Assembly: GCA_964276515.1 (NCBI GenBank) | Contig: OZ193909.1 | Span: 14,694,001 to 14,758,000, forward strand | Source: Gordius albopunctatus | Lineage: Eukaryota | Reading direction: 5' to 3' | DNA length: 64,000 nt | Shown here: piece after piece, positions 14,746 through 64,000 of the stretch | Layout of the letters: the number at the start of each line of letters is the position of its first letter | How positions within the stretch are numbered: the stretch's first letter is position 1 | Position numbers and translations under genes: made by a program | Notes under the pieces: generated by a model | Database searches by the model: none | The model's input: the letters and a program-made list of their open reading frames with translations, nothing else | Told to the model about the DNA's origin: nothing

Positions 14746-14840
14746 GAAAAGCAAAAAATGGGCGAAAAGTAAATTAATAAAAGCAAAATATGGGCGAAAA
14801 GTAAATTGAAAAAGCAAAAAATGGGCGAAAAGTAAATTAA
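14746..14840. repeat. Three tandem ~31-bp units (AAAAGCAAAAAATGGGCGAAAAGTAAATT); duplicate at ~32066-32160
   Basis: Direct tandem repeat read from the sequence. Confidence 0.75.
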
Positions 14841-16200: not shown

Positions 16201-16427
16201 ATAGACACGCACACATCTCGGTAAAATCTTTAGTCTCTTCAGTTTTAGGCGCTTAAATAAAACCCAGCCTTTTTCACAACACGACTAGTCCACCCTTGTT
16301 ACTCCACAAAGTTAAGGCATAAAAAGGGCCCATCTGCCAAGCCTACGCTCTAAATCACGGATCAAATGTTTGGTTGTTATTTAGATGGATAAATGGATAT
16401 ATAGGCATTCGAATGCACGCCCTAGAC

Positions 16428-24700: not shown

Positions 24701-25285
24701 TTTTTTAAGGTTTACCTTTTAATGATCATGACGTAGCTAACTTTATAAAAGCAAATACAACTGGCACCGCCAAAACCGGGCTGCAGGCGCTTTTTGTTAT
24801 AAATTGCGGGCCGCGCTTGGACGAACGCTATGGTAATAAAACAAGCACGGGACGGGCCTAGCTATTTGTAGAGGCAAAACTTTTTATTTTAATATATAAA
24901 AATGTTGTTTTTTATGATGGTAATCAAATTTTATTAATAAAACTTTACAGTATAATTAAATCTATATTAATATTTGTTCGTTAATTATTCAAATCTTATG
25001 ATTTTTAAATAATAGGATTCCGAGATTTTTTATAATTTAGTAAGGGGATCGCGAAAAATTAACTAAAATAGGTATAATTAATTATGTAAAATTAACCTTG
25101 CATAAAGTTTTAATTCTCATAAATGGTTTAATGCAGCTTCAAGCAGTGGCGTAGCACCAAGAGCAAAACCAGACTCCATGGCCCCTCCAAGGAAAAAATC
25201 TTGGGCCCCCGGGCCCCTTCCGCCCTTATTTTTTTTTAATCTTAATTAAGAAACAATATCAATATTATTATTATTGTTTCTGGAT

Positions 25286-27972: not shown

Positions 27973-28137
27973 TAGTGGTGGGAAAACGCTTAGCACTAGC
28001 GCGCTTAGCACCTCCCCGCTGATGGGAATAGCCTATTAAATACGCTATGTCTACTAGCACATAGTCACTTTAAGTGCTATAAGCTATAGGAGATGGGAGG
28101 TTTGAGGTGCTAGAGCTATAGGAGATGGGAGGTTTGA
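27973..28137. mobile_element. Start of minisatellite-armed hAT element inserted in the RTE (truncated by gap)
   Basis: gttattac|TAGTGGTGGGAAAACGC..., identical to 42930 onward. Confidence 0.85.
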
Positions 28138-28337
28138 NNNNNNNNNNNNNNNNNNNNNNNNNNNNNNNNNNNNNNNNNNNNNNNNNNNNNNNNNNNNNNN
28201 NNNNNNNNNNNNNNNNNNNNNNNNNNNNNNNNNNNNNNNNNNNNNNNNNNNNNNNNNNNNNNNNNNNNNNNNNNNNNNNNNNNNNNNNNNNNNNNNNNNN
28301 NNNNNNNNNNNNNNNNNNNNNNNNNNNNNNNNNNNNN
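28138..28337. other. Assembly gap (200 N)
   Basis: Run of n. Confidence 1.
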
Positions 28338-31229: not shown

Positions 31230-34200
31230 CCGAGAATATGAACCAGGGGTATGTATTCCAATGGGAATGGGGGGTTGAAATTTCGCATGCATAAAGGCAA
31301 AAATCAAAATATCTCTTTAAATACTAAAAATACCTCCCCGTACCCAATTAAGAAAATGTAATTTGGTGTCGTTGGAATCAACTAGTGTCGAATAGTTGCA
31401 GCTTACGGAAATTTCCGAATCTGGTGCAAAATCTAATATGTGCAAAATCTAATAATGTAATATTCGTATTTTAGAAATTGAGACCGGTTTTCACGCATAT
31501 TCATACGCATGTAATATGTACTAAAAAACTACGTAATAAAAGGATACTATAATTTTTAATTGAAACAAAATAAGTTATATCAAAATGTATAATACTATTA
31601 TATAAATAAATACATATTATCAAATAAATCACTAAATCTAACCCTAACCCTTGCCTATATTAGATTTTGCACAGAAGTGAAATTTCCGCTCAATATTGAC
31701 GTCAATGCAGTAATTATGGGGTTAAGCCGTTAGAAATTATAGATTCCAATTATTGAGTAGCGAGATAGATTGACATTTTGTTCTTCTTGTGCCACCCCCC
31801 CCCGCCTAGTTCGAATCCTGGCTACGCCCATGTTTGCCTTAAATCAATATCGTCCAATGCGTAACTAAGGCGAACGAAGTTCTCTAACCATCAGAATATA
31901 TAATAATCTAATTAATCATTTGGTATGTTTATGTTTAGTTGACCACGAAGCTTGGTCGAATTAAAAAAAAATGACCAGATTCGAGCGTTAGTCTTAGTTT
32001 ACCCAGCCATTTTTACAACACCACACACTTGTAGGAAGAAGAATCAACGTATACGGAGGAAATTAAGAAAAGCAAAATATGGGCGAAAAGTAAATTGAAA
32101 AAGCAAAAAATGGGCGAAAAGTAAATTGAAAAAGCAAAAAATGGGCGAAAAGTAAATTAAGCGCGAGCTTTTCGCATAATTTTGTTTGGTTGACCCTCGG
32201 CTCGGTTCAACATAAACTAAGGGCCGCACTGGTCTGCTTTTCAATTTTGGACTAAGCCTAAAGAGGTCGGTCAAAAAAAGAGTCCAAAAAACGGTTGGAC
32301 TTTATATGTATCGTGGAACAAGCATAATTCAGTACGGAGCAATAAAAATGGAACAACAACAAAAATAGTGGAGAATACTTTTCTACCGTAATTCCGTGAA
32401 GGAATCCTTCCCGTTTTATCCAATATAATGAAGCCAGGAAATCTTTGTAAAACGTGAAGGGGGGGGGGCTAAATCGTATAATTAATTGCCCGCCCGAGTA
32501 GGCAGAGCGCCGCTATATTGCTGCTTGCTCATCCTATCCAATTTTTCCAATTTATAGATTGGTTGTTTGTTGTACGCGATGCGAGGGTTTAATCAGGCAT
32601 ATGGTGGTGCGCGGCGCGGTGGTGAGAATGCAATATCAAGCAAGAGTACGTATTATTAAATTTTCTAAATAACCAACGATCTAATCGGCGCCCTGGCACG
32701 CCCTGATTAAATAGTACTTAAAAATAAGCATCAACTTACTTTTTCCCCCTTTCCTCTAGAGGTAGGGTAAAAATTGGTGAATTGGCCAATCGGTAAAACA
32801 ATATATGATAGAGCTGAGATCTATTTATGTGCACTCAATGTGGTGAGATTCCAAAATGTGTTTCCTAATTTATAGAATAAATAAGTGGACGGTTGCCAAA
32901 AAATTGGTTGCTCCGGAAAGATGGGAGTTGGATCGGATAATTCGTTGGCGACCATTTTCCCATTTTAATCATTTTTTAATTAATTACGTTGCGTCGCCAA
33001 AGTGGCTTTAGATAGCAAACGCGTGCGGAAGGGGTCTGGGCAACCAGGCTATATACCGACCGACTATTAACTTAATATTAAAATCGCACCCATTTCTGAC
33101 GGGTAGAGTTGTGAGGTGGTTATAATTTTTGTGCGACACAATGATATAATAAAATCACAACGACCCCATGTTCCCTCCCTCCTAGTTTTTGAAAGGTTTT
33201 GGGTCAACAACTCACGGCTTTTACAAACGGCTGCATTTTGGTTTTAGTTGACAAAACATAAAGAGTACAAAGTTTCCAAGTCCGTTTTCCTGAGTCGCAC
33301 ATAAATAGGCACGCACATTCCAATAGCTGTTTGTTGTCACACTAAGGTGGCCAGCTTCTTTAGGTATTTGGATGAGGGGTCATGCTCGGCTATCCAGCCC
33401 TGACAGCCGTGGCGACCATGTGATTTTTAATATCTTTTGAAATAATTGGCAGAGGCGGGGGGGGGGGATCGAACCTGCTAGCTCTTGCTTCAAAGACTAA
33501 AGCCTTTACCCACTACGCCCCTCAAATAGACACGCACACATCTCGGTAAAATCTTTAGTCTCTTCAGTTTTAGGCGCTTAAATAAAACCCAGCCTTTTTC
33601 ACAACACGACTAGTCCACCCTTGTTACTCCACAAAGTTAAGGCATAAAAGGGGCCCATCTGCCAAGCCTACGCTCTAAATCACGGATCAAATGTTTGGTT
33701 GTTATTTAGATGGATAAATGGATATATAGGCATTCGAATGCACGCCCTAGACTGACACGAACACTACTAACTAATGACTTCGTGGATTAATCAAAACAAA
33801 AATTCTTTTGGCTTCGAGTCCTCCTGGCCTGGCTGTGGCTGATAATAATAATTTCTCGGAAATTCGTGTTCAGATAATTCTGACTCTTCGGGATGCCAGA
33901 TGAATTTTTTATGCGTGGCACGGTGCCATGTGAAGAGATAAACATGGTCGTCGTCGTCGTTACTTAAATTAAGTTATCCTACCCTGATAAGTAGCCAAAT
34001 TTTGGGGAAGATTAAGGAAAATGAAATCAAGATACCAAAAATTTGAGAACGCGAAAATTGAATAGTAAGATAATTTCATTTCGGTGTTGTTTTAGATAAA
34101 GGTTGAATTTAAATTGATAAAAATAGTAGTATTTTAATAAACGTATCAAGCAATTTCTAACAAAAGTAGCTATGTGTATGCATTTAATACTACTAGGCAT

Positions 34201-37200
34201 AATTTAAGGAACAACGGAGGCATATCAAATTTAGTAGATATAATATCTGAAAATTAATTAATTTTATCATAATTAGCTTTAAAGGTCGAATCGCGCTGTC
34301 AAGCAACAAACAAATATTATGACACTGGCTGGGGGTGTGTCCTTAGGTTATTATTGTCGTTTCCCCTAGCTGCTAGCACATGCGTGCCTGCCTTTCCTCG
34401 GCGCAACCTAGATTTGGTCTGCCAAAAAAGTTTTTGCGCTCACGACAGAATTGCTAAACAGTAAAGAGCATCATATATAATTGAAATTATGATATTTTTC
34501 AAAAAATTAAAAAGATGCTTATCAATGGGTTAGGATTAGGATTGAAACTAGAGGGGGTGGGGGGTGTAAAAGGATAATGTTCCTTAATTTTCGCCATATT
34601 TATATTAAACTTTGAAGAATTTTGGGATTTAGAGGGGGGGCAGCCGCCCTTCCCTGCCACCCCCTGGCTACGCACATGAGCTTATCCTATCTAATTTTAT
34701 CATTCATATACTTCAAAGTCACTTTAAATTTTTTGTGGCGCTCAGAAATGGACCATATAAACTATATAAATTCTCAATGTTTTCAAAGCTGGAAAAACAC
34801 CAAGAACACTTTAATTAAGTTTTATCGATAAAAAATAGGTGATATAGTTGCAATTTTAAAGACCAGAAGGGAAATTTAAGATTATCATTATGCTGGGAAA
34901 CAAAATTAGGGTACATGAAAAAGTGCAAAAGTTTTGGAGAGAGACCGTATGGTAATAATATTTAGCGTGCATTTGTGACAGTGTAAAACCTGAGCGACCG
35001 CCTCGAGCAATTTTGGTAGACGATCGCGCATCATTTTGTGGGCCGGAAAAAACACGTTAAATTACATTGTATACCAACTAAGTACGCCATGCATCGTATT
35101 TAGGGAATTAAATTATGCAAAAAACTCGTCTGCGATATTAATGAGCATGCTAAAATTGCTAGAAATTTATATTAAAAAAAACCTATCATTTTGGAATGGG
35201 ATTGTCATTGCATACAAAATTGCGTTATTGGCAAATGTATGGGATAATATGGAGTAGAAATTAGTTTTTGTATACAAATCAATATATTATTGGACATGTA
35301 TAAACATTATTTGGTATTAAACCTTATAGTTATACGCCTAGGGCTAAAATACAAGTTAAAAATGAACCTTAGCTTACAACTTATAAATCAACATGTTGTC
35401 AAAATTTTGACAATAAATGCTAGAAAGCGACCTTTTATCATTTATTACACAACTCACCAAGGGGTGTCCCCCTATTTTTTACACTCTTTCTCACCACCCC
35501 TGGTAAAAAGAGGGTTAAAAATAGAGGGGGGGGGGGCAAACCAACGGGACAAATAACGGGAGGGGGGCAAAGTTCTTTATAATATATTTTAATTTTTTTA
35601 TCACAATTTTTGGATTAATATATGATTGAAAAATATTGATTAGCATTATATGCCAATTGCCTGCTCAGCTATTAAGCTATAATAAAATCTGCTGAAAATC
35701 ATGTTTAGTTTCAAACAAGCATGCTAGATACCACGGTTTATATCAAGCAACTCTGCTCAATGCCCAGCTAGTTTATATCTTACTCAACCGGCAGCCATCA
35801 GCAGCTTTAATTTGCTAGTGCTAGTAACCGGGTTATTAAGCAGCATCTGCTCGTTATGCTGGATGGGAATGGTAGGAGATAAGTGCCTATTACCAGGGTT
35901 GAGCATGTAGCATATAAGCATTTTAACATCTCTAATGGGGAGTTAAAATGTGCTGATTAAAATTGATTTTATCCATTAAATATTTTATATAACAAAATAT
36001 GCAAAAAATTTCAATTGATTTAAATTATTTTGTGCTATAGATTTATAACAAATTAACCTATCTTTAATAAATTTACAAAATATCTGTCAAAAGTAAACAT
36101 TAATATATAGATAACTCATATTTTACATTTAAACAAGTTTTTTAACATAATAAAAATATTAAAAAAACAATATTATTTAAATATTTTATATCATATAGAT
36201 TGGTTTTATTCAGAGTTTAATTTATATATTAATTTAATAATTGATTTTGATAATCTTGCAAATAACAAAATTTGTGCATGAACTTACTTTGATATTTTGA
36301 TAAACAGATGATTGTACTATTGTTTGCTAAATCCACTAGGTAAATTTTGCATCTTTTAAATGCTACAATACAATATTCCTTTTTTTATAGGCTGATATAA
36401 ATCAAATTATACATTATTAAGCGTAGAACATATATTGATGTTATAAAATAATCTTATAAAATCGAAATTAACTGATATAATTAATTAAATATAATTAATT
36501 TTATGAAACCATAGCTAGAATTACCTGCAAAATAATGCGTCTTTTTGATTAAGCCATAAAAACTGTGTGTGATAATGTTTTTTATTGGACCTCAATAATG
36601 CAACAAACATTTTGTTTTAAGTTTTATAAGCTATCTATTAAACAATATATCCAAGTTTATTTAGAATGCCATATATCCGAAAACTTTATTAGCATCTTAA
36701 ACATCTAAAAAGCCTTACACCTTCCAGTAGGAAAGACAATTCAGCATTGTATAATGGTTCCATCAAACTCATAATAAGGAAAACCTACCATTAATCTAAT
36801 GAATCAAGCTTACATATCAGACATAAAAAGATACACTGTTTAAATCTAATTTATGGCATTAATATTAGTGTATTTGATGAATAGCGGCTAACAAAACAAC
36901 AAAGAATATTCTTAAGTTAATATGTCGATTGAATTATTTACATCTTAGGCAATTAAGTTTGATCAATGGAAATAAAATGAGCGTTGAACGGGAATAAGGT
37001 AATTAGCTCCTATTAAAGATAGGTATCAAAGCCTTTTACTGGCGACTCTTTAGCAACAAATTTGCGGCTTTTTATAGGTCGATACTGTAACATTTAGGTG
37101 ACTTTAATATTAACTTAGACCAAAACATTGAATTACATCTCTTTTCTCGAGTAGTCTAACAAAAAATAGCGTTGTTCCATGGAATAGCGAAAAAGTTCCA

Positions 37201-40200
37201 GAAGAATCCATAAGTAATGAAGAGTTTCTATATAAGCCATACATGAACTCACTACTTAACACTATTACCCTACTCTTCATACACTACTGGTGTTTTATAT
37301 AATCATATCGTGTTTCGAGTTACAGTCCTCGTTTTTAATCGCAACTGTAACATTTATCCCTTTTATCCTTTTGATTTTTAATACACTCAATAAATTTTGA
37401 GAGGAGATCCTCTAAAATACCATGCTCATACTGTTTACGTATAAATTTCCAATATATAATTTGTTTAAAAATTTATATTCATCCTTTTTTTATTTTGTAA
37501 ATTAAATTTTAAGAAATACAATATTTCATTAGGAACTGACTAAACAGCTTATTTAGAGCACACTGACTCATCTGGTTATAGCTTATTAAATATTATATTA
37601 CAAGGCAAAACACTGAGAAAGGTAATTATTTATCTAAAACTATAAATAAATAAAAACTAATATTATTAAAAATACCACATTTTATTTAAAATAATATTAT
37701 TAGTCTTATACAAGATATTAAATTCAAATCACGATATATATGAGCTAATGTTCAGAGGCGCTGCCAGCCTTCCTCCGGGTTGGGGCCGAACTCAAGTTTA
37801 CACCGATGGTGAGGGGTCAATGGCGATTATAAAAAAATTTTCCTTAGCAATTTTTCAAACTTAATAATCGGCTATTCCTTTGTGTAATTTTATTTTCAAA
37901 ATCCACCTGGGAAAGAGGGGGGGGGAGGGGGTAAGGGAGGACAAAGAGGGTAATAAGGGCCAATGGTGAAACTCGAAGCAGGGGGTCAGAAATATATACA
38001 TTTTTGACCTAAAAGTTAGCCATCCACATCTTCAAAATGGACAAATTTACAAAAAAAGTCACAAAAGAAAAGAACAAAATGGGTGATCTTTAGCCAAGGA
38101 ACGGCTATCATTTATTTTCAGGCAAAAAAATTATTTTTGGGGAAAAGATTTATATTTGAAGCTATACCCTTTTAAGTTGAAATCAATATTATGTTCTCAA
38201 ATTTTAGATATTCCAACTTTCGTTTACCTTCGACATATAAATGAGCATGCCAAATTAGAGAGATGCAACGGACCTCTTAAGGTCAATCAGCCCACCCGTT
38301 ACAAATATCTTAAGCCGAGTCCGGACTCATCAAACAAATTATAGACACGGCCCGCTAATTTTTTACAAAGCTCGAGCCCGGGACCGGATACATAAACTTT
38401 TATTTTGCATCTTTTACTATTCGATTGTATTTTTTTTACTAAATTCATCATGTAAAAAATAATATTCATCTAAATATAAAATTTGCATATATAGATTTTA
38501 AAGGTATGATTGGAGGGGACAACGTCCATAAATAGTTTCTAATTAACACTTATCAATTTAAAATGCGCGTTGAGATATTGATGAATGAATGAATAACGAG
38601 AAAAATTTTCTTAAATTGATATGAAGTATCATAAAACATATCTAGTTTGTACTTTAGTATACCCAAAAATTATATATGATCACGGGCGCAGCTGGGGGAG
38701 GGCAGCTCTATCTGCCCTCCTCTAAACCCCCTCCCCTCTAATTCCAACGCGGGCTACGCTCATTTTTATTATCTTGTAACGTGCTCAGCGGGACTTAATT
38801 TTATCTATGCATGGCCCAAGCCCGCTAAAATATTTTAAGGCCCGACCCCCATAGTCGTTGTTTTTTAAAAGCAAAGGCTTTCTCGTAATTTCACATAGAG
38901 ACCTGCACGGCCTTTAAGTGAAATTACCCTTAATAAAATATATTTTATTTATATTGCTAAAATGCAACAACGGAACTAAGATTATCTTAAGGCTACTACA
39001 TAAATTTATGGGGCCTATAGTGAGTTTGTACAAATTTATAAAGACCAAAATGGAACGGGTATAGACCGACAAGAGAAAATCGGTATAACTATCTATAAAT
39101 AAAATTCATTAGGCATAGCGGAATGTTTTCCCAATATCTACGATTCTTAATTTTTTAATTTATTTATCTCACCTTCACAAAATATATGTTTTTTTATATA
39201 AAATTAATGAATGATTCCATTATCGTTCATTTTACCATGGGATAAGCGGATAATATACCATACATATTAGGTTTAAGTTTAAGGTTTTGTTTCTTGCTTT
39301 TAACAATTTATTAAATCTGAATTTTCCGCCTTTTGCATTGCTTGTTAATAAATAAAAAGCGGAAATATAATATAAATAAGTCACTTAGCTCAATTAAATA
39401 TTTTCTTATTTAAAAAGTAATAAAAATAATTAATTTTAATTAAATTACGAATTAAATAATTGCTTGGAGAGGCCAAAGAGGCCAGAAATTTTCCCTTTGG
39501 GGGGGGGGGAAGATTATAATAAGAAAATACCACTAATAAGTACTCAATTTAAATGATAATTTTATCATGCGATTTCATCATTTTATTCTTGCATGCTTCA
39601 TTTGTAAGCATCAAAATTCAACTAAAAATTAATATTCCTCATGGTTTAGTAAATTTATTTTATAAGGTTTACCTTTTAATGATCATGACGTAGCTAACTT
39701 TATAAAAGCAAATACAACTGGCACCGCCAAAACCGGGCTGCAGGCGCTTTTTGTTATAAATTGCGGGCCGCGCTTGGACGAACGCTATGGTAATAAAACG
39801 AGCACGGGACGGGCCTAGCTATTTGTAGAGGCAAAATTTTTTATTTTAATATATAAAAATGTTGTTTTTTATGATGGTAATCAAATTTTATTAATAAAAC
39901 TTTACAGTATAATTAAATCTATATTAATATTTGTTCGTTAATTATTCAAATCTTATGATTTTTAAATAATAGGATTCCGAGATTTTTTATAATTTAGTAA
40001 GGGGATCGCGAAAAATTAACTAAAATAGGTATAATTAATTATGTAAAATTAACCTTGCATAAAGTTTTAATTCTCATAAATGGTTTAATGCAGCTTCAAG
40101 CAGTGGCGTAGCACCAAGAGCAAAACCAGGCTCCATGGCCCCTCCAAGGGAAAAATCTTGGGCCCCCGGGCCCCTTCCGCCCTTATTTTTTTTTAATCTT

Positions 40201-43094
40201 AATTAAGAAACAATATTAATATTATTATTATTGTTTCTGGATTAACACTACCTACGACGGTCCCAAGTCCGTGTGCAAAAAGTGGAGGGTTGGCGTCAGG
40301 TCGGAAACCGGCTATAAAAATCAACTCCAAAATTTATGATAGTTTCAAACGAGATTTTACAAGAAAAGGCTAGGGCGTCCTCCACAAACGACGCGCACTG
40401 CATACCCCGCCCGTGCAATGTGAAAAATACACTAGGGTTACTGCCTAACTCACAACGAAGGCGGTTAAGGAAACTAGTTGTGGAAAGAATGCGAATTACG
40501 TGCTGGAATGTGGGAACGTTGACGGGGAAGAGCATCGAGGTCGCACAGATGTTAAAAAAAAGAAAGGTACACATCGCCTGCCTACATGAGACGAGGTGGA
40601 ACGGAACGAAAGCTCGGGAATTAGGAGAAGGATACAAGCTTTTCTACAGTGGGTCACCAAATCGTAGAAACGGGGTCGGTATCGTTCTAAGCGAATCGTT
40701 CAAGGACAAGGTGGTGGAAGTCAAACGTTGTTCCGACAGGCTAATGTGGGTGAAGATTGCGGATCAAGGGGGCCTCCTAACCGTTATGTGCGCGTATGCT
40801 CCCCAAATTGGGTGTTCGGAATCAGAGAAGGACTTATTCTTCGATTCATTGGAAAAGGAAATACGAGGAATCCGATAGGAGGAAAGGCTAATTATTAGGG
40901 CCGATTTCAACGTTCACGTAGGAAAAGATTGCCTCGGGTATGAACGCAATCATGGAGGCTATGGACATGGTCTGAAGAACAAAGAAGGGGAAAAACTTTT
41001 CCAAGTATACCAAGCATATGACATGGCGATCGTTAACACCTATTTTCAAAAGCGCGAAGATCATATTGTGACCTATAGAAGTGGGAAGCATTTTTGTCAA
41101 ATCGACTATTTGCTTATACGGCGAAAGGACTTATGGAGTATCAAGAATTGCAAAGTAATACCGGGAGAAGAAATTGCCAGGCAACATCGTCCTCTTGTTA
41201 TGGATCTTGACAGAAGAGTATTTCCCGAAAGAAGAAAGGTCTATGAACCTCGAATTCGATACGAAAGGTTAAAGGATACGTCGACGAACAAAGAATACCA
41301 TCAAAAAGCCTGCTCACTCTTGGGTGCAAGGAAATTGCAAAGGGACGTAGACGACGATTGGGAGACGCTATCTAAGGACATTAAGGAAACAGCGAATCGT
41401 GTTCTAGGACAGACAAAAGGAGGCAAAGCTATGAATAGGGACCTATGGTGGTGGGATCAATCGGTTAAAGATTTCATCGAAAGAAAAAAAAATCTATATA
41501 GACGGTGGCATAAATCAAAAAAGTCGGAGGATTATCAAGAGTACAGGTACGCAAAGAGGGCCGCAAAAAAGGCCGTTGCAAAAGAGAAGAATGCCGCGTA
41601 CACCGAGATGGCAAACAAACTGGATCATAAAGGGGGCAATAGGCTTATGTACTAATTGGCCAAGATAAGGGGTTAGAAAAGTCGCGATGTCGGAGTTCTT
41701 AAAATAGTCAAAAGCGAGAAGGGTCAAACCTTATTTAAGCCGAAAGAAGTGATGGAAAGGTGGAAAGGATATTTTAAGAAACTTATGAATATTGCAAATG
41801 ACAAGAATTTCCTTCCCGAAATTGAGCCAAATATAAGTATGGTCAAACTCTTTCAGGAGGATGAAGTTAGGACACAAATGAACAAGTTGCAAAAAGGAAA
41901 AGCAAATGGCCCAGATGGAATACCTATGGAAGCATTGCTCGGATGTCGTGAAGAAGGAGTCACCACTATGACGAACCTCGTTAAAAAGATATTGGTAGAA
42001 GAGCGAATCCCTAATCAATAGAGAGCAAGCACGATTATACCCTTATTTAAAGGCAAAGGAGACCCTCAGGACTGCGGCAATCACAGAGGTATCAAGCTAA
42101 CCTGCCACTCCTTGAAGCTTATGGAAAGGATCTTAGTAACAAGGCTGAAAACGAGGGGGAAAAATCGGCTAATCAATTCGGATTCGTGGCCGGCAAATCC
42201 ACAATCGACCCAATCTTCGCACTAAGACAAATGATGAATAAGTATGGTGAAAAGAGGAAAGACCTAAATATGGTTTTTATCGACTTGGAGAAAGCTTATG
42301 ACACGGTCCCCCGCGATTTAATATGGTGGTGCCTGAGGAAACAAAATATCCCTCACGCATATATTCGACTTAAGAAATCTATTTATAAAGCCTTTAATTC
42401 TTGCGTTAGGACGACAGTTGGAGACTTTAACCCTTTCGGATTATAATTGGATTACATCAAGGATCTGTTCTAATTCCTTTTTTTATTTAATATAATTATG
42501 GACACAATAACGAGAGACATTCAAAAATCATCGCCATGGTGTATGCTATATGCTACTGTGCAAAGAGACAAAAGAGAAAGTATTCGAAGAAACCAAAAAG
42601 TGGTCAAAGCGCTTAGCTGAATATGGTTTAAAGGTCAACGATCGAAAAACGGTATACATGGAGATGAACGTTACAGGCGCCCCATCGCTGGATGACCACC
42701 TAAAGTACCCAAAAGTAGACAGGTTTACTTACCTCGGCTCAATGCTACATCAAGAGGGAGGTTGCGCAACGGAAGTCAATGCCCGGATCCAAAAAGGATG
42801 GCTTTGTAATGTGCGACAAGAAAATGCCAATATGGTTGAAGAGCAAAGCTTACAAATCCATCGTAAGACCGGTGTTACTCTATGGAAGTGAAACATGGGC
42901 ATTAAACACCACGGAATTAAAGTTATTACTAGTGGTGGGAAAACGCTTAGCACTAGCGCGCTTAGCACCTCCCCGCTGATGGGAATAGCCTATTAAATAC
43001 GCTATGTCTACTAGCACATAGTCACTTTAAGTGCTATAAGCTATAGGAGATGGGAGGTTTGAGGTGCTAGAGCTATAGGAGATGGGAGGTTTGA
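31230..43094 (+). repeat. Copy 2 of the large duplication (probable haplotype B)
   Basis: Colinear with 13875-28137 apart from SNPs, small indels and absence of the 16428-18798 insertion. Confidence 0.9.
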
Positions 43095-53528: not shown

Positions 53529-56500
53529 TTAATAAAAATTAAGAGAGTTAGAGGTGATGCGAATAGTTTCGTTATCGGATAAAAGTTCGGAAGCAACATC
53601 AGCTGGATACAAGATGGATCCTTCATCTGTTTTAATCATTATGTCATTTTTAATATCGATCGAATCCAAACGTTTGTCTGATTTTTTTTCTGGGTATATG
53701 GTAAAGTAACGCTTGAGGGCTTCTCGGCCTAACCAAGCTACCGTCTTATCCGCATCTCGCCTGCGAAAATATTTAATTTTAAAACGAGGAAAAGGGAAAA
53801 TATATTATATAAAAATCGGTATAAAACTAAAGGCAAGTGACCTCAATAAGGCAACTTATTAAATGGTAAACCTGAATAAGAAGTTTATCTTAAATGTAAT
53901 TGTAAAACATGTTCATAATCAATTACAAATCAACTATAAGGAGATTGAGACTTAACACAATATAAATCCCTTTAAATTCCCCCCCCCCGGTTAAATCCTG
54001 CGAAATCAGAACGGAACCAATTAAGAGTATGCATTAAGTGCTTGCAATCTAAACATATTCTGACCCCAAAACCAAAAATTGATCCCTTCCATATAGTAAG
54101 TTTACAAAATAAAAAAAGTTTATTTGCAGTTATCTGCAGAAGACAAATAAAGTTTTGAGCTTATAAAAATCTCAATCCAAAATCACTTTGATGAGAAGAC
54201 TTCGACTTAGTTCGGTACCAATATTTTTACGTTCGAATGTTGTATACTTTAAGGAGAGCGGTATCATTATTTTATGCCCGTCAATGAAAACGTTTATCCT
54301 CATTACGGGTCGCTGGGAGGACGGGATAGCTGTGCTACGGCTACTTATAACGGGAGACGAAGAACGACCCGAATCTTTAGATTGATTCATGTGTGCAAGC
54401 TGATCGCCACTACATTCGGCATGGAAGGCTGAGGCGGGAGGTCTGATGTATTGCCTCAGGAAGGTTTTATTACCACTACTTATACTTTCGACGGCAAGAG
54501 AGGACGTTGGAGCGATTCCCAAAATTGGAGATTTACTTCTAATAGCGTTATTTTGGTCTAAAATCTCTACGGGGTTTTGATCGAAAGGCGAGGTCGGGCG
54601 AGGTGAAATCAATCTTTCATTAATGCTCTTGCCCGATGCTCGAGAGTCTTGAGATGAATTCTCGTCGAGAGCGTTGTCTGGGATTAACCAATCGTCAACT
54701 ACATTTTCCCTTTCCCTAATCAGCGCGGGAATGCATTTTTTAACGGCCGGCTCAGCTAAAACGGTGTTTGCCGGTGGCGGCCTCTTGATAGCTTTCATGG
54801 CTGCCCTATATTCGGCATAGGAAGAAGATCCACACTTGCTCTCGCTCCTTATGTCCTTTGAGGTCGAATAACTTTTACGAGATCTTAACAAATGATCAAC
54901 TCTTTCCCCATCATGCTCCCTCTTTTTCGTTCCGATATCAAAACACGTGTTTTCTTCGTTATCATCTATAATTTGGACAGACGGACGGGCTCTAACGATT
55001 TCACGATAGTCTTTACTATTGGTTTGATCGTGGGGGAAAGCAAATTTTTTACGAGTTTTAGGCGAGGAAGTGGCTTTAGGAGTAAATACGCTTGATGATT
55101 GCTTACCGTCATAGGCACCCACTTTTCCATGTATCCTAGGCTCGATGTTTTCTGAGATTTGAGAAAAAGCATTATGACTATTTATACAATTTGCAATTGA
55201 ATAACATGCAAACAAAAGTGTTATCATAAGATACGGCATGGTTGTATAACGAGTGTAAGATTTGATTTAAGCAAAATAATAAAAAATTCAAATAGGTTAA
55301 AACATTATTTCAAGCTATCTAGCAGGTACAATGTTAAAAGGCAAAAAATTATTTATAATATTAAATAAAAACACACTAGCTTTCATCCGTTTCAATAAAA
55401 GGTTTTCCATCCCGTGCCAAGCTGCACGTGTTTCGGCATCCATATCATCGCAATTTGACATGCGCCATTCGACCAACGTATCGTAAGGAGTATTTCCCTA
55501 ACGATTATAAGGAATTCAAAGTTATTAAGTGATAAAATCCTAACAAATATTTGATAAAAGTGGCCACCAACAGACTTAAGTAGTAATGAGAAATAAATCA
55601 AAATTTCTGATCTATTTCAAAGTATTATATTAAAAAGTTTTAGAAAGGGGATACGAAAATGTGAAATATTAACTAAAATTATTTCACCTCAATAGTCTTT
55701 TTACCTATAAAAGACTAATAATCTCGTGCTAAGTATGCAGCTTTTATAGAGCTCGGTATAACTATAATTGTCCACCAACTAAATATAAAGGATCGAGATT
55801 TAAAAAAGTCACATATCAGCTCAGGCAAATAAAAGTGAGCTGTGAATTTCAAACCTTAACATCACAACTTAACTTTGCCAAGACAAAATAGATTACACTC
55901 CTAAATTTAAATTCAATTCCAAAATACAATTAAAAGCGGTCATAAAACGACTATACTTTAGATTAAAATAAAAAGCATTGCAAGAATTATAAATAATCAT
56001 TACGTGATCGTCTCGAAGCAAAGGGTCTGCCCCGTGTTTCAACAAAAGTTGCATCGTACTGACGTGCCCCACAGAAGCTGAATCGTGTAACGGCGTAATT
56101 CCATCACACATATCATTGTTGTAGTCGGAAGCATCTCTTTCATCCCGACCCCTATCATTGATTCGAGCCCCGTGTGACAGCAAATATTCAACTACCTCAT
56201 CACACCCATAGTTACAGGCTTCGTGCAGGGGCGTCCAACCACAATTATCTCTAACATTGACGGGATGGCCCTGAAAGATTTATTATAATAATAATAGTGT
56301 TTGTTTCGCAATTTAGACAAGTTGCAAAAAGTATTATATAAAGTTAATCAGTGAAAAATCGATAAACTCGAATACCGTAAAAGAGTTTAAGAATGATATA
56401 GTATATTTGACGACCCTACTTTTACTCTCCATCGTTTCCCCCCTCGTGTATTATTGAACCCTTGACTCTCGTCGGCGTGGAAAATTTTAATTCTATCCCC

Positions 56501-59500
56501 TTCTCTTGGTTAAATTCGTTTATGCCAAGAAGAGCCTCGTCGAGAAAGAATATCCCTGACACCACTCCCCTTAATAAGTATTTTTCCAAGTTCACGTCCC
56601 TCAGTAAGATCCATTCATCGACGCAAAACGCCCTGATGACCTCCCCAGATAAATCTTCCACTGGTGCCACCATCAGCAGTGACGCATTAGGATCTGAATC
56701 AATGGTTAAGATGATTCTGGATCGGCTAGCGGCTATGGACGCCAAGATCGAAAGAAATCTGCTGGACAGAAGTGAGGAAACGATCGGTGGGGTTGAAAAC
56801 ACACTACACTGGGCCCCATCACCGGTTGCCGAAACAGTTACAATGACACGGGCCGAGTTGGACACGCTCTTAGCAAGGGAAAGAGCGCGCCCCACCAATT
56901 TACCTAGCTCCAACACGGAAATCCTAAAGCTCCGGTTAAAAGACCTCCGTGAAGCTATTGAAACCAATTATACGATGCCAGCCTATCAAAAACACGAAGC
57001 GGAGTTCCTACTCAGCTTGGGCGATTCCATTGATGATTACAATAAGACTGTTGACAAATTCTCGGATAGGGTCAGGACACTTGCCATGGCGTCATACTAC
57101 GGTTGGCAGGCCGTCACAGGCAAATCTAAAGACTGGGCAGAAAAGATGGGCATGGGCCAGTATACCGAGCCGGTCCAGCTTTTTCGTGCGCCTGATCCAA
57201 GGTATGCTCCGAGGAAGAAAGGCTCTCAATCCAAAGGGCCACCTCCGCCTCGGGCGGAGAGAGCGTAGTTATGTAAGGACGGTAGCGGCGACCCTCGGCA
57301 GTGGTGATAACCCGCCGAGGTCGGTGAGGAATGGAAATGCACCAACATGGCTCTCTAATTACACGGCCATAGCTAGGAGCATCGCTATCAACTCCATTTC
57401 TCCCGACGATGGCCCGGAGCTGGAGGAGTCGATACACCCCTTCAGTACGCCGCTACCCGAACATACAAATGTGCTGGGACATCTCACATCTCAATGGACG
57501 GAGGTGGGCTTGAATAGCGAAGCCCCACCTATCATCAGCGAACTCTCCAACCCCTGCATTCCCTTCCCACCCCCTTTCCTCATATACACACTTCAATCTC
57601 CCTCTTTCTATTCGGACAACGGTATTGAAACCACATCGTTTACAAAGCAACTTTACCCGGAGAATCGCCACTCATGGTTTCAAGCCAAGCTATCGCGTAA
57701 AGCAATTGTTGAAAACCAAGGCAGATACCATGTCCCAAGCATAGACAAACCTTTTTTCTTTACCTCTCCTGTTCGAACAAAACGGCACAGCGCAAAACGC
57801 CATTGCGTGATATAGGACGGTAGTGTTCATCAAAATGGAGGCAAATTTCACACACAATTTGCCATATGGAACATATGACATGGGCAGTCTATGTAGTCTA
57901 TGGTCCCAAGATACGTCAAGGCGATTCCTCGTGAACACAAACCCCTAGTGGACGAGATCATTCTGTCGGATATCGTCCGTGCTAATTCCGACACCATCCC
58001 TTCACCAATGTATTTCATCCCTAAGAGGGATGGCTCTCCACGACTCATCGCTGATTTATCACAAATTTCCAAGAATTTCGTTAAATACCCCTTTTCATTA
58101 AAATCTATCCCATTAATTGCTTCTTCGTTATCAGAAGCAAAATTCATGACCAAGATAGATATAAAGGCAGCGTTTTTCTCCATTCCGCTGGCGCCGGAGT
58201 CATACAAATTCTTCGGGTTCCGGTACAGGAGACGCAAATATTCTTATAAGGTGCTTCCGATGGGAGCCAGCTTCTCCCCATATGTGCTGCAACAAATGAT
58301 GCTTGATCTTTGCAAGAAATCAATCACTAGGTCCAAGTATAATGTATACCTCGATGACATTCTGATATACGGACCCTCCGATACCCTGGTCCTGGCGGAT
58401 ACCTGGATCCCCCTAACTCTTGTTTTATTTATTGATATTTCCTCATGTAATATTATAAACAGCGAACGCGTATATAAATGTAAGATATGAAAGTAAACCG
58501 CGAGAAATTTTCCACGCCGACGAGGGTCAAGGGTTCAATAAGACACGAGAGGGGAAAGCATCACTTGTTGCAGTGTGTTGGAGGGTTCGCTGATGATAGG
58601 TGGGCCTTCGCTATTCAAGCCCACCTCCGTCCATTGAGATGTGAGATGTCCCAGCACATTTGTATGTTCGGGTAGCGGCGTACTGAAGGGGTGTATCGAC
58701 TCCTCCAGCTCCGGGCCATCGTCGGGAGAAATGGAGTTGATAGCGATGCTCCTAGCTATGGCCGTGTAATTAGAGAGCCATGTTGGTGCATTTCCATTCC
58801 TCACCGACCTCTGCGGGTTATCACCACTGCCGAGGGTCGCCGCTACCGTCCTTACATAACTACGCTCTCTCCGCCCGAGGCGGAGGCGGCCCTTTGGATT
58901 GAGAGCCTTTCTTCCTCGGAGCATACCTTGGATCAGGCGCACGAAAAAGCTGGACCGGCTCGGTATACTGGCCCATGCCCATCTTTTCTGCCCAGTCTTT
59001 AGATTTGCCTGTGACGGCCTGCCAACCGTAATATGACGCCATGGCAAGTGTCCTGACCCTATCCGAGATACCTGGATCCCCCTAACTCTTGTTTTATTTA
59101 TTGATATTTCCTCATGTAATATTATAAACAGCGAACGCGTATATAAATGTAAGATATCTTTTTTGATTGGCTCGTAAATTTTGCTGAAAGTGGCTTGCAT
59201 AGGTAATTGTCAAATTTTTCTTTTCCTGGACTTCTTTACAGCATTTATGCCTTTGGAGATGAGTGTTCCATATTAAGCATTATCAAAACAAGCTTAAATA
59301 ATTACCTGATGAGCAGGAATTATAGGATAACACATTCCTGCAAATCTTACAAAAAACAAAATCTATTTTATTATAATCTCCATACTACTTTACAAAAAAA
59401 ATTTCCGAATATTTTCAGCTATTAGCAGTCGATCTTTTTTGTTCCATACTTAATTGTATATTAGGACAAGCGTGAAATGAATAAATGAGTGTTTAACAGA

Positions 59501-62500
59501 TTCAATAACTTGTATTTAATTTTTGAAATTTTATAGATTGATGTAAACAGAATAAAAAACTACTTAGGCTCTTCTAAATTATTCCGGGCCGGGCCTATAA
59601 TTTATAAATTAGGTCCGGCCCGGAATTTTAAATCCTTAAAATTTAAGGCCCGAGCCCGTCCGAACTTTTGCCGACCGGGCCTCCGGCCGCCCGTGCAGGT
59701 CTCTAGTCGGAGCACACAATAGAAATGGAGTTTCGGCTCGGGCGAATTCGGAAAATTTAAAGCCAATCAGCGGTCATTAGCTAGTCTTTATGAAGAAGCA
59801 AACCAGCCTTTTGCAGAATTATAAGTTTCCGTTATTATAAAACCGAGAAAATAGGACTGGACAACCAAAAGTGAGCCCCTAAATTGCATAGCAAAAAATG
59901 TTATTCAACGTGCATTGCATAACGCAGAAATCTCCAAAGGTGACACATAAGATATGTTTCGTAAATTTTAGTTGATTGGAGGCAAGGAGGTACAAAGATA
60001 GGATAGAATGAAGAAGCATCCGCCTTTATGGCACACAATGGAAAATAGTTCGTTTCCATTGTTCCAGCTTAAAATTTACTATAAATTGACGTTTTGTTAG
60101 CAAAACTTAGCAGCGATTACGAGATGCCAAACTTAGGTTTGCGTCAGTCAGAGTCACCTTTAGATTTAAATCTACAAAACAAGTTTTGTCAAAATTAATA
60201 TGAAAATTTATTTTAATAAATCTTAATCGTATAAAAATTGTAAATCACAAATTAATCTTATTTCTAACTTTAAATGGGCTTTAAGTTTTGTATATCCACA
60301 CACACCAAAAAAAGTTAGAGAGCGTAATGGATTACTCAAAGCGATTCAACTCTAAAAGGTTTATTGTCCAAAGAATAATAATAATTAAATAAGAGCAGGT
60401 CGCAATACCTTAATCTTAAAATGCTAGGCGATTAAAAAAATTATCGTGTTTTAATTTTGTCCAAATAAATTTAGCTTAAACTAAATGAGAAAATGAAATA
60501 TTCTTCTTTAATTTCTTCCCCACCCCTAACCCCTAAATTTGGTGAGATATTGTCATATCCTATTATAGGTAAATTTACCATTTCTACGAGCTTAACAACT
60601 CTTTTAAGGTTGCCATCAATACACGCTTTGTGCAAGATTGTTTCGCCTTTTTCATTCCTCTTCACTGCAAAACTATTTCTAACGCTCGTGGAATTACCTT
60701 CTTTACAGCCTTTCAAAATGTCCGATTCTTCGTCCCCTATTAATGATTTATAATTTCCTATCAATTAATAATCAATTCGATTATAAAATTTTTGGCGAAA
60801 TGTTAGCTATTTAAAACGATACATTCCCTAAAGCTTTTTTTTTACTATAGAAATATTTACATAATTAATGATCACTCAAAATTCTTATTAATTATAATCG
60901 AGCGTTTCTGGTTCTCGCGTAAAATTTTTTGACCTAGGGGTTTTGAAGCCTTTGGCTTTGAACTTTAAAAAAAGTCTTTTAGGCACTCTTTCCTAATCCC
61001 ATACGTATAATTAATTCCAAATTTAAGAAATCCATAAAAATTGGTGTCAATTGTAATTAAAAAACTGCATTAAATTTGTTATCAACTTGACCTAATGTAT
61101 GGCGCCATTAATTAATTTCAGGCATAGCGTACCGAACTCACTCCCCTCCCTTCAACCAATCCATTAATTAAACTTTATTTTAATTTAAAAAACAATGAAG
61201 TTTTGAAATAAAAGTGCATGGTTAAAAGATATTAATATATAAAGTCATGTGCTAAGCAAGCCCTATAAATCCTAAAAATTTAATATAATTATGTCTAAAA
61301 ATTACTATTTTGCCCCCCCCCCAAAAATCCTGGCTACGCCCATATATAAAGTCATTTTTAAATATATGCTACGATAACAGGAAGCAAATGTCATTTGAAA
61401 GCTTCTTAAAAATAGCTTAACTAGACTATGGCATTTTACCCGAAGAATTAGAGCTTGGGGGATCGGAGGAAAAACAGCTCTGATCATCACTGATTTCTTG
61501 GTCAACCACACTCGTCTCTTCACCTCTATCCAGAGCAATTTCCAATCGTTTCAATAATTTCCCCAGCCCAAGCACTAAATCATCTTTTTCCCAGTCTGTA
61601 CTCATCGAGAAATCTTTTGTGCTGCGCAGTAAATACAGCTGGGCATCGATCCAGGCAGCGTATAGCTTGACCGCTTCGTTCCTATACCTGGTAAAACTAG
61701 AGCCGAGCGAGACGTTAAAGAAAGCGCCGTACATTTTAATGGTACACAAATCTTTCCAGCAAAATTCATCGGACTTTTCAGTGTCTCTCGTCAACTTAGC
61801 AGTGACCAAACTTAGCCCGTACTGGCACATATTGAGCAGCGTTTTAGCGACGTCGCGCGACTTTTCTTCGTTGAAAACGTGGTTGTGGTGAGACTTATCA
61901 ATCAGTTGAACTTGAGTTATTTCGCGACTTAAAAAATCGCGAATTTCCCGAGGTGCGTTGAAGTGAATCGTACCTTCAAAGCCGTAACATTTAAGTTCCA
62001 AGTATCCAAAGTCTATGGCTTTAGAAAAATTTCGTAAATCGGCATAGCTCTGAGCTACGGAGTAGTAGAGGGGAGCTAGGTCGCTGAGTGGCATTTCTAG
62101 CATTGTAGCAAGTTCGACCGCTTTACTGTAATGTGTCAAGGCTTGGTTGTAGCAAGAAAATTCGGAAAAATAATCGCCCAACTTTTCGTGATACTTACAG
62201 GCTCGGTGTAATTTCGGTGAGTTCCTGAGGTTGGAATTAGTTGATTCCTCCAACGAAGATATCTCCTTTTCTTGCTGTTCGACGATGTCTTTATGTTGGT
62301 TCAACCAGTCGTTTTTGTGGCATAACTTCTTTACTAAATCGTTACAAAAATACGATTGAAGCTACAAATTAAATACTTTTTAACAAGTTTAAACATCGAT
62401 GATACTTATGAAGTCTAAAATTCTCACACTTTTCATGAAATCTCATTGAAATTTTAACCAGCATTCAAAAGAGCAATCATAGCTATTAGCAAATGCTAAA

Positions 62501-63931
62501 TAAGCAATACTTGGTGTAACCCTTTATTCACGTAAGATTAATAATATTAACAGCAAAATCAATAAAAACCACATTTATAATGCTTTAGGATCTACCATTA
62601 TTCATAGACAAAAACTGGCTACAATATTATGAAGTAATTTTGTAAAATTTACTTGCTCTCAGATATTTTTGAACTTTTTCCACATTGTCATTTGATTGCA
62701 CAAGGGATGCACATCTCTTAAACAAAAATTTACCTCTGGGATAATTTCCCACTTTAACCATAACCTATTTTAGCATGTAAATTCATAGTACATAAAACGT
62801 TATATGAATTTATCATTTATAAAAATTATATTATACTAAAATTTTAATATTCTGTTTTGATTAAATTAAAGCCATTATATCCAAAACACCAAACTTATGT
62901 AAATTAAAGTAATAAATAATTTTTAAAGTATAAATGTAACAAACAACACCTCAGCCTGACGTGTCAATGCATCTATCTCTGCACAGGGTTCTTTTAGTTT
63001 TTGACTGCAAAGTATTGCTTGTTCCAAAATTGTAATTGCTTGTGCATAATCTTCATCTCTTACAAAAATTTCTGAGAGTGAGAAGTATATTTTTTGCATT
63101 TCTTCCATAAAATTTTCCAGTCTGTAAATTATTTACATTTTGTTTAAATACCATAATCTTATTAATAGAAATAAAAATCACTTAAAAATAATGAATATTT
63201 TAACTAAAAATCATATTTACAGGGCTAATATAAAATTAATAGTTAAATAATCTGAGCAAGTGTACAACAAAATATTCCTAAATATCCTAAGTTATCAAAT
63301 ACCGATTAAAATTGATATCAAGCATCAAATTTGTTTTTATATAATTTACAAGATTTTAAATGTTCTGGACAAAAAAGACTCACTTGGCTATTTTAAGAGC
63401 TTGCTGGAGAAGCATAGCACATTTTTGGTAGTCTTTTCTTAGTTCACACACAATGCCTAAGTTTAAATACCCTCTTACCATCATTTGTTTTAATTCCTTA
63501 TCATTTATTTGTCCTTTTAGTTTAGAGCATAAATTAAGTGCCTACATTATATATTAGAAATAAATTAAAAATAATTACTTTGGCACATTCTGCTTCACTG
63601 GATTTTAAAGTTTCACTTGCTCTCTGTCTTGCTTTTAAATATTCTTCTACATTTGTATATATTTCATCTTCATTGCAAGATATTTCCTCAAATTCTAACA
63701 TTAGTATTCTCCCCAAAGTAGTGTGAGCACGTTGTTGTTCAATTAAGGTTTTAGTTCCAATGCTTAGGTTCAAGTATTTGAGGGCATGAGATTTTGCTAA
63801 ATCAAAACTTTTTAGCATGCTATAACATTCAGCTATTTTTCTGTGTGCTATTGCTTTTCCTAAACTATCTTGTAAGTCTTGAACAATATTGAGCTCTTGC
63901 AAGTGCTCACTAAGAGCCTCCTTATGCCTAT
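53529..63931 (-). CDS. TONSL: Tonsoku-like DNA repair protein (5'-partial): TPRs, ankyrin repeats, UBL domain
   Basis: Phase-consistent exons 63579-63931, 63384-63541, 62950-63121, 62653-62764, 61440-62333, 60579-60757, 56004-56270, 55377-55497, 54248-55151, 53529-53760. Motifs AIAHRKIAECY, IEQQRAHTTLGR, YLNLG, EKLGD, LAPLYYSVAQSYAD, RNEKGETILHKACIDG, RDNCGWTPLHEACNYG, CDGITPLHD, RINVFIDGHKIMIP, TVAWL. Confidence 0.9.
56522..57268 (+). CDS. ORF1 of the retroelement: gag/core-like protein, 248 aa from the first ATG
   Basis: Uninterrupted ORF upstream of and overlapping pol; coiled-coil-like segments; RVRTLAMASYYGWQAV resembles the A..GW motif of DIRS-group gag; basic Pro-rich C-terminus. Confidence 0.65.
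   Translation: MPRRASSRKNIPDTTPLNKYFSKFTSLSKIHSSTQNALMTSPDKSSTGATISSDALGSESMVKMILDRLAAMDAKIERNLLDRSEETIGGVENTLHWAPSPVAETVTMTRAELDTLLARERARPTNLPSSNTEILKLRLKDLREAIETNYTMPAYQKHEAEFLLSLGDSIDDYNKTVDKFSDRVRTLAMASYYGWQAVTGKSKDWAEKMGMGQYTEPVQLFRAPDPRYAPRKKGSQSKGPPPPRAERA
57740..57902. mobile_element. hAT-type MITE inserted in pol of copy C
   Basis: CATAGAC ... GTCTATG with perfect 8-bp TSD gtcccaag; its removal restores YHVPRYVKAIP. Confidence 0.88.
58398..59157 (-). mobile_element. Rearranged inverted pieces of the retroelement (copy D): 3' end + ORF1/pol fragment + 3' end
   Basis: 58572-59068 is the reverse complement of ~57060-57550. A ~90-nt 3'-terminal block occurs twice (58398-58488, 59067-59157). 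58505-58557 is the reverse complement of 56435-56487. Confidence 0.85.
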
Positions 63932-64000
63932 CTGAGTCCAATAATTAATTTTAACTAAGTATTAAAGCTTAAAAATAAGATACATTAAGACTACTTTTAA

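What the first reader, a model, noticed from the sequence alone, without database searches (positions are those of the whole stretch)
56363..58432. Terminal architecture suggests self-priming by the element's own 3' end
Seen: (i) the sequence upstream of ORF1 (56363-56487) recurs downstream of pol, at 50/53 identity to inverted 58505-58557 and recognisably to 49879-49997 of copy A, giving a terminal direct repeat. (ii) Right after the 5' repeat and just before the ORF1 ATG lies TATCCCCTTCTCTTGGTTAAATT (56494-56516). It is imperfectly complementary to the 3'-terminal motif AATAAAACAAGAGTTA(A/G)GGGGAT, which is conserved between divergent copies A (50073-50095) and D although the neighbouring UTR is not. 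Inference: this is the geometry of a retroviral primer-binding site. The RNA 3' end could fold back, prime a strong-stop copy of the 5' repeat, and jump to the 3' repeat. The layout differs from LTR, DIRS ITR/ICR and Ngaro split-repeat arrangements as I know them.
Basis: partly seen in the sequence, partly recalled or inferred. Interest (0 to 1): 0.78.

Follow-up and report, generated by a model that had tools for sequence, protein, structure and literature searches.

The report
Integrase-less retroelement with repeated ends
This is a multi-copy jumping-gene family in an animal genome that encodes a reverse transcriptase but no enzyme for inserting itself and has a repeat at both ends; it likely starts copying at its conserved tail using loose DNA ends, and the proposed fold-back self-priming at its front end is not borne out.

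Summary
The anatomy is real; the primer-binding-site mechanism is not supported. The window holds broken copies of three diverged subfamilies (A, B, C/DE) of one retroelement: X - spacer - ORF1 - RT/RNase H - X - Y - c, with no integrase, tyrosine recombinase or endonuclease frame. Closest named proteins are from the nematomorph Gordionus (38%). X (~125 nt) and the 24-nt end motif c (23/24 identical between subfamilies whose synonymous sites are saturated) are confirmed. The 5' site c' pairs with c (-19.6 kcal/mol; 24/3000 spacer shuffles, 80/1500 UTR shuffles), but X holds equally good complements, predicted c:c' pairing is 0.00 in competition, half of c' forms a hairpin over the AUG, and c contains AATAAA 17 nt from the end. 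A strong-stop-and-jump cycle would yield ends without Y-c, yet 3 of 3 3' ends carry Y. Both loci are tail-to-tail pairs in which one copy's minus strand starts exactly at c and is joined to another copy's sense strand. Best reading: RT initiates at c on free DNA 3' ends; repair inserts the product. Family not found in the papers searched; HEART membership untested.

The parts
56363..56487 (+). Copy C, 5' copy of terminal repeat X (first ~75 nt X1, last ~53 nt pyrimidine-rich X2)
   Evidence: family depth starts in the bin 56350-56439 and a single-copy contig spans the host junction with 0 differences
56435..56474 (+). Two sites inside X that are complementary to the end motif c
56500..56533 (+). 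Predicted hairpin pairing the distal half of c' with the ORF1 start codon region
   Evidence: z -2.5; 5 of 200 shuffles
56522..57268 (+). ORF1, 248 aa, helical, basic ends; Gag/capsid-like role inferred from position only
   Evidence: no homologue, low-confidence fold
56940..58406 (+). Copy C pol frame (overlaps ORF1), interrupted by a MITE and cut shortly after YLDD
57740..57902 (.). 163-bp MITE inserted in C pol (CATAGAC ends, 8-bp target duplication); not part of the element
   Evidence: very high depth
58407..59068 (-). Copy DE: one 5'-truncated, internally deleted copy (ORF1 end/pol start 98.6% to 57060-57558, ~18 nt of RT, X2, Y, c), tail-to-tail with C
   Evidence: junctions covered by short-read contigs
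58505..58557 (-). 3' X2 of copy DE
58407..58430 (-). End motif c of copy DE (contains AATAAA, ends GGGGAT)
59067..59157 (-). F: exact 91-bp duplicate of 58398-58488, includes 9 nt of C beyond the c junction
48067..50095 (+). Copy A: 5'-truncated pol (in-frame stop at 48413-48415; RT-RNase H 48416-49861), 17-nt gap, X, Y, c
49879..49997 (+). 3' X of copy A; X1 folds as a long hairpin
   Evidence: z -3.6
50072..50095 (+). End motif c of copy A
50096..52019 (-). Copy B: 5'-truncated, stop and frame change near 51355-51391, X at 50282-50165, 3' end 19-20 nt short; tail-to-tail with A
   Evidence: X1 z -4.7

Best explanation
This is a retroelement family encoding ORF1 and an RT-RNase H polymerase, with a ~125-nt repeat X at both ends, a conserved 24-nt 3' terminus c and no integrase, recombinase or endonuclease frame; its RT likely starts minus-strand DNA at the last base of c, likely primed by a free DNA 3' end rather than by folding back on the 5' site c'. 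Shown: the layout, selection on pol and on c, precise ends at GGGGAT in two subfamilies, two tail-to-tail loci, no target duplication. Inferred: c is both poly(A) signal and RT initiation site; the primer is a chromosome break or another copy's plus strand caught by 0-2 nt of microhomology; X lets the cDNA switch template to rebuild the 5' end or promoter; host repair seals the product; c:c' or c:X pairing is at most an end-bridging or translation switch.
For: c is 23/24 identical in A and DE while synonymous sites between subfamilies are saturated (pS 0.76-0.80, pN 0.06-0.14). In 2 of 2 loci one copy's minus strand begins exactly at ATCCCC and is continuous with another copy's 3'-truncated sense strand; the C|DE junction lies in a short-read contig with 0 differences (record 6). 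A and B are separate lineages, so A|B is not a fold-back. 3 of 3 3' ends carry Y after X. DE shows two microhomology template jumps and F a third. No target duplication longer than 5 nt at either locus. No other sense frame over 94 aa in A; RNase H stops 17 nt before X. c:c' loses to other partners in folding.
Against: Only two loci and one c'; the other copies' ends were seen only in fragments. No junction of c with host DNA is seen, so how a first, whole copy enters the genome is unexplained. Tail-to-tail joining of two finished linear DNAs would look alike (about 1 in 16 for two of two if orientation is random). B stops 19-20 nt short, the span that c' can cover, which this model treats as chance. 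c:c' complementarity is above chance in the spacer. No RNA data; folding is a thermodynamic prediction without protein.
Confidence: 0.45

Rival explanations
1. Hepadnavirus-like protein priming: the pol N-terminus primes at a structured signal in X, and pairing of c with X or c' brings the ends together for primer transfer, like HBV epsilon and phi.
For: X is terminally redundant and X1 is a strong hairpin in A and B (z -3.6, -4.7; one compensatory pair). Pol has a conserved N-terminal extension (68-89% between subfamilies). Best Foldseek TM-scores in the viral library are an unnamed 634-aa protein (0.55) and HBV P (0.51). Phi is needed for minus-strand primer translocation (PMC8632529, passages; its pairing with epsilon seen only as a reference title there).
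Against: No TP family match; residues 1-103 unfolded in the model; no profile match before residue 123 to the ~750-aa relatives; pol scores 123 bits against that group versus 203 DIRS-like and 243 short RT-RH group. 3' X is followed by Y, so the genome is not a unit circle. X1 is not a significant hairpin in C, the only 5' copy (z -0.7).
Confidence: 0.17
2. Reverse-polarity self-priming: c is the primer-binding site and a cut 5' RNA piece ending in c' is the primer (Tf1-like, but annealed at the 3' end), so the minus strand copies Y, X and pol without a first jump.
For: Keeps Y in the product. c' can pair with the last 19 nt of c and copy B lacks exactly its last 19-20 nt. 5'-RNA self-priming exists in Tf1/Tj1 (PMC4600332, passages).
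Against: One event, in a subfamily whose c' is unknown. A and DE keep all of c. No route to rebuild c is evident, since c is not the exact complement of c'. Predicted c:c' pairing is 0.00.
Confidence: 0.12
3. Local snap-back priming: c folds onto the adjacent 3' X and its 3' OH primes directly, as proposed for a 3' hairpin of DIRS-1.
For: In DE 12 of the last 16 nt pair with X2 at P>=0.7; the DIRS proposal is in PMC7192593 (passages).
Against: The DE fold is not better than shuffles (29 of 200); in A the pairing is spread over several sites; this route also leaves Y-c uncopied; a poly(A) tail would block it.
Confidence: 0.1
4. One reading: c primes on c', copies X as a strong-stop DNA and jumps to the 3' X.
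For: Geometry is right: the duplex pairs the last base of c and leaves X as template; best site for c on C's sense strand when local structure is ignored.
Against: Predicts ends X-spacer without Y-c (0 of 3 seen); c' is not a fresh copy of c; out-competed in folding; a second copy lost the C-run; AATAAA spacing.
Confidence: 0.08
5. These are recombinase-less derivatives of a DIRS/Ngaro-type element whose YR is supplied by copies elsewhere in the genome.
For: DIRS-like proteins are among the next relatives; DIRS-1 RT acts in trans (PMC7192593, passages).
Against: Three subfamilies with saturated synonymous sites share the recombinase-less 3' layout; no ITR, ICR or split B repeat; named Gordionus homologues show only RVT_1.
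Confidence: 0.08

Closest known systems
DIRS-order YR retrotransposons (DIRS-1, PAT, Ngaro, VIPER/TATE)
   Same: ORF1 then RT-RNase H with a similar RNase H end (NPAD..SR); terminal repeats thought to rebuild ends; DIRS-1 inserts into its own copies and its primer is unknown (PMC7192593, passages).
   Different: No tyrosine recombinase or methylase frame; repeat is direct, with no ITR/ICR and no B1 of the A1-B1-A2-B2 pattern (PMC6681497, passages).
Blubervirales (hepadna-, nackedna-, proto-nackednaviruses) and HEART retroelements
   Same: Integrase-less RT-RNase H polymerase with N-terminal extension, terminal redundancy with a hairpin; best structural matches include HBV P.
   Different: No TP detected, no core or surface homology found, 3' repeat followed by unique Y-c so not a unit circle; many integrated copies under selection. 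HEART anatomy could not be read (Gong and Han 2018 not held).
Tf1/Tj1 self-priming LTR retrotransposons
   Same: Element RNA complementary to a site next to the 5' repeat.
   Different: There the 5' RNA end is the primer and the element has LTRs and an integrase (PMC4600332, passages); here no integrase and an extra Y-c beyond the 3' repeat.
Endonuclease-less Penelope-like elements (recalled, no call)
   Same: No endonuclease, priming on free DNA ends, 5' truncation, partial tandem and inverted pairs (F resembles a short pseudo-LTR).
   Different: RT here is of the LTR/DIRS/hepadna type with RNase H; no ribozyme found.

Membership tests
LTR retrotransposon (incl. Tf1 self-priming group) | Integrase after or before RT-RNase H | tested here: not met
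   RNase H stops 17 nt before X in A; no other frame over 94 aa; longer-form search found only distant integrase-bearing proteins, lengths 983-2805 only
LTR retrotransposon (incl. Tf1 self-priming group) | Element ends with the 3' LTR; 4-6 bp target duplication | tested here: not met
   Y(-c) follows the 3' X in A, B, DE; only chance 5-mers off the boundaries, though both loci are compound
DIRS-like | Tyrosine recombinase ORF | tested here: not met
DIRS-like | Inverted terminal repeats with an internal complementary region | tested here: not met
   X is direct; no inverted copy of Y-c beyond chance in A (53 of 100 shuffles) or C (52 of 100)
PAT/Ngaro/VIPER | Split direct repeats A1-B1-A2-B2 | tested here: not met
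   no direct copy of Y-c upstream in A (57 of 100 shuffles as good) or in C (89 of 100)
DIRS order | RT-RNase H groups with DIRS-order sequences | tested here: inconclusive
   Gordionus clade support 1.0, position unresolved, references mostly unnamed
Blubervirales | Terminal protein domain | tested here: inconclusive
   no Pfam or profile match, N-terminus unfolded; but the ~750-aa relatives also miss the Pfam TP model
Blubervirales | Circular genome whose terminal redundancy repeats the 5' end | tested here: not met
   5' X is followed by spacer-c', 3' X by Y
Blubervirales | Core protein homologue | tested here: inconclusive
   ORF1 has no homologue; model pLDDT 51
HEART retroelements | RT clade and genome layout of HEART1/2 | not testable with these tools
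   paper not held; no named HEART sequence among hits
Retroviral-type PBS | Site recopied from, and covarying with, the primer | tested here: not met
   c' differs from the complement of c by a 2-nt gap and distal mismatches; covariation itself untestable with one c'
Penelope-like / retrozyme | Hammerhead ribozyme in the terminal repeat | tested here: not met
   Rfam scan of 47500-59500: one chance hit, E 4.7

The most novel reading that the evidence does not exclude
A new class of autonomous retroelement between DIRS and hepadnaviruses that has no integrase, recombinase, endonuclease or tRNA primer and primes reverse transcription with its own RNA: the 5' site c' anneals to the conserved 3' terminus (as cut primer or as end-bridge), and pairs of genomes are joined tail-to-tail before host repair inserts them.
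Probability: 0.2. Interest if true: 0.88.

Novelty: new variant of a known kind. Interest (0 to 1): 0.6.

Why it matters
The primer of DIRS-type reverse transcription is still unknown (PMC7192593) and hepadnaviruses are proposed to descend from invertebrate retroelements (PMC12691608). A multi-copy animal element with this kind of RT-RNase H, terminal redundancy, a sharply defined conserved 3' end and no insertion enzyme gives a natural test case for how such polymerases start and how integrase-less elements persist. A public chromosome-scale relative (Gordionus proteins on 30-94 Mb contigs) makes the end-covariation test directly doable.

Tried and rejected
No whole genome is held, so other copies were seen only as short-read contig pieces; ends of the A/B subfamilies in other copies remain unseen. 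No RNA holder listed. IMG/VR scans gave 5 and 3 loci, all long single-polyprotein LTR-type elements by their ORFs: rejected. Metagenome scan with the pol alignment: 383 candidates, 0 relatives. Motif scan: 1 hit, L009, 31/34 nt but no RT or ORF1 in 8 kb: treated as chance. ORF1: 0 of 713 candidates, no Atlas hit, fold too poor to search; its likeness to Ngaro ORF1 (A...GW..V) and of a pol N-terminal W.E.GL...P stretch to the ~750-aa relatives is by eye or recalled, and the second was not recovered by HHalign. A/B as one fold-back event: rejected by saturated synonymous divergence. F as a 91-bp target duplication: rejected because Y runs on in register inside the supposed insert. Joint 56520/58505 is ambiguous (X joined to the ORF1 start without a recognisable c', or c' joined to Y) and is not used. 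Organism B flank contigs stop aligning at 56280, the exon edge, so no empty site could be shown. A maximum-likelihood tree run returned nothing. Earlier findings: none returned. Literature: 10 searches showed no description of this family; subscription papers, Repbase and supplements were not seen.
Full report
Setting. The window is AT-rich eukaryotic DNA; no whole genome is held. Copy C and its neighbours lie between two ankyrin-type exons of a minus-strand TPR/ankyrin gene (Pfam; 'Tonsoku-like' is recalled). The 481-aa frame at 48416-49861 matches only RVT_1 in Pfam and ends in an RNase H with NPADAPSR. Its closest proteins are uncharacterised ones from Gordionus sp., 37-45% identical, so the host is probably a nematomorph or near relative (inference).

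Anatomy. Labels: X terminal repeat, c' the 5' complementary site, Y the 3' unique UTR, c the last 24 nt. C (56363-58406, +) is X, spacer with c', ORF1 (56522-57268), pol in an overlapping frame, a 163-bp MITE with an 8-bp target duplication, and a cut just after YLDD. A (about 48067-50095, +) is 5'-truncated pol, 17 nt, X, Y, c. B (52019-50096, -) is the same but 19-20 nt short at its 3' end. F (59067-59157) repeats 58398-58488 exactly and includes 9 nt of C, so it was copied after C and DE were joined. A, B and C are separate subfamilies: 78-91% amino-acid identity in RT-RNase H, pN 0.06-0.14, pS 0.76-0.80. No sense frame other than pol exceeds 94 aa in A, so there is no room for a recombinase, integrase or endonuclease.

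Other copies. Four contig sets were laid on 55900-58570 (two from the same organism, possibly the source). Summed depth rises about 25-30-fold from the 56350 bin, which shows a multi-copy family but is no copy number. A single-copy contig spans the host-C junction and another spans C|DE, each with 0 differences, so these are not assembly errors. Two contigs diverge before 56363 with sequence like the RNase H end of A, which places the left edge of the 3' X at the same base as C's 5' end. One contig about 89% identical runs through X, spacer and ORF1 (record 8), so that layout is a family trait. Another, deleted copy has X followed by a 26-nt spacer that keeps TTGGTTAA but has lost the C-run (table 5c); by eye its pairing with c is weakened, not abolished. 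Only the best-supported rows were shown (for example 24 of 743 loose ends).

The observation. X, the conservation of c and the c:c' duplex are as described. The duplex has 14 bp, a 2-nt bulge, and pairs the last base of c. It is the best site on C's sense strand when local structure is ignored. Chance: 24/3000 spacer shuffles and 80/1500 UTR shuffles for D's c, 11/3000 and 14/1500 for A's; 5/3336 and 8/706 background windows.

Why it is probably not a primer-binding site. First, X holds two other complements of c, one at -19.1/-19.4 kcal/mol against -19.6/-19.9 for c'. Co-folding C's first 238 nt with Y-c gives P(c:c') 0.00, with c going to X instead. In DE, c folds onto its own adjacent X (12 of 16 nt at P>=0.7; 10.7 kcal/mol to open), although that fold is not better than shuffles (29/200) and A shows no single equivalent helix. 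Second, the distal half of c' pairs with the AUG region (5/200 shuffles), and this is the half the deleted copy keeps. Third, following the proposed cycle through: priming on c', copying X and jumping to the 3' X gives a DNA ending X-spacer and leaves Y-c behind as primer; all three 3' ends instead carry Y, two with all of c. Fourth, a retroviral PBS is recopied from its primer every cycle (established knowledge), yet c' is not the complement of c in its own subfamily. Fifth, c begins with AATAAA 17 nt before the end, the spacing of a poly(A) signal (inference; no RNA holder was listed). In favour of some role for c': above-chance complementarity next to the start codon, and B's 3' end is short by the 19 nt that c' can cover.

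What the junctions say. Both loci are tail-to-tail. In each, one copy ends exactly at GGGGAT and its minus strand continues the sense strand of a 3'-truncated partner, with 0-2 nt of overlap; the host junctions are at 5' ends, with no target duplication found. This fixes c as the start of minus-strand DNA in two subfamilies and suggests that RT takes any nearby DNA 3' end as primer (inference). X would then serve to rebuild the 5' end by a template switch. Its first half is a strong hairpin in A and B (1/200 and 0/200 shuffles) but not in C (44/200), with 1 compensatory pair of 12 in a three-sequence alignment; DE's deletion lands at the 3' foot of that hairpin, as an RT pause would give (one event).

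Relatives. A profile of pol, two Gordionus proteins and one distant hit found 274 proteins at E<=1e-30. In a FastTree of 142 sequences (17 dropped for short coverage) the window and Gordionus proteins form a clade with support 1.0 whose position is unresolved. Group profiles without them score pol 243 bits (unnamed RT-RNase H proteins, those looked up on 2-5.5 kb contigs), 203 (DIRS-like), 123 (about 750-aa group, taken by me to be proto-nackednavirus-like from size and contig length) and 113 (gypsy-like); the groups came from the same search, so this is a ranking, not a placement. The AlphaFold model (pLDDT 82, residues 1-103 unfolded) matches RT-RNase H folds broadly; top TM-scores are an unnamed 634-aa viral protein and HBV P. 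No terminal protein was shown.

Literature seen. PMC12691608: first third and passages. PMC7192593, PMC6681497, PMC11551314, PMC4600332, PMC8632529, PMC6282271 and 10.1101/829473: passages only. Gong and Han 2018 (HEART) and three other papers were not held. No supplements were read; HEART layouts there or in Repbase could lower the novelty.

Verdict. A real, apparently undescribed integrase-less RT-RNase H element with a terminal direct repeat and a conserved 3' terminus. Interest 0.6.

Noticed in passing
window 13952-28137 and 31276-43094: Near-identical tandem duplication (98.6-98.9%) on both sides of a 200-N gap at 28138-28337; may be a haplotype duplication in the assembly.
   Followed up: no
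window 25361-27934 and 40318-42891: Broken endonuclease-RT LINE (RTE-like by eye), present in both halves of the duplication.
   Followed up: no
window 16486-16827, 18390-18697, 43031-43952, 44330-44735: 32-33 nt G-rich satellite arrays in both orientations, two of them facing each other as inverted pairs.
   Followed up: no
window 57740-57902: Very high-copy 163-bp MITE with 8-bp target duplication (hAT-like), even more abundant in the second organism's contigs.
   Followed up: partly
window 57250-57430: Family depth peaks 5-10-fold at the ORF1/pol junction, synonymous divergence is reduced there, a hairpin follows the ORF1 stop, and A and B both begin within about 90 nt of it: possible subgenomic start, recoding signal or RT stop.
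   Followed up: partly
window 54172-63944 (-): Host gene with TPR and ankyrin exons (Tonsoku-like, recalled) carries the C/DE/F cluster in an intron.
   Followed up: no
proteins P0036, P0038, P0061, P0070, P0074, P0090, P0109, P0124, P0155: Several unnamed lineages of RT-RNase H-only proteins with acidic N-termini on 2-5.5 kb contigs; neither clearly DIRS nor proto-nackednavirus.
   Followed up: partly
window 45065-45173 and 53174-53282; 11922-12301 and 52018-52194: Short dispersed repeats (LINE 3' end fragment; a second repeat directly abutting B's 5' end).
   Followed up: no
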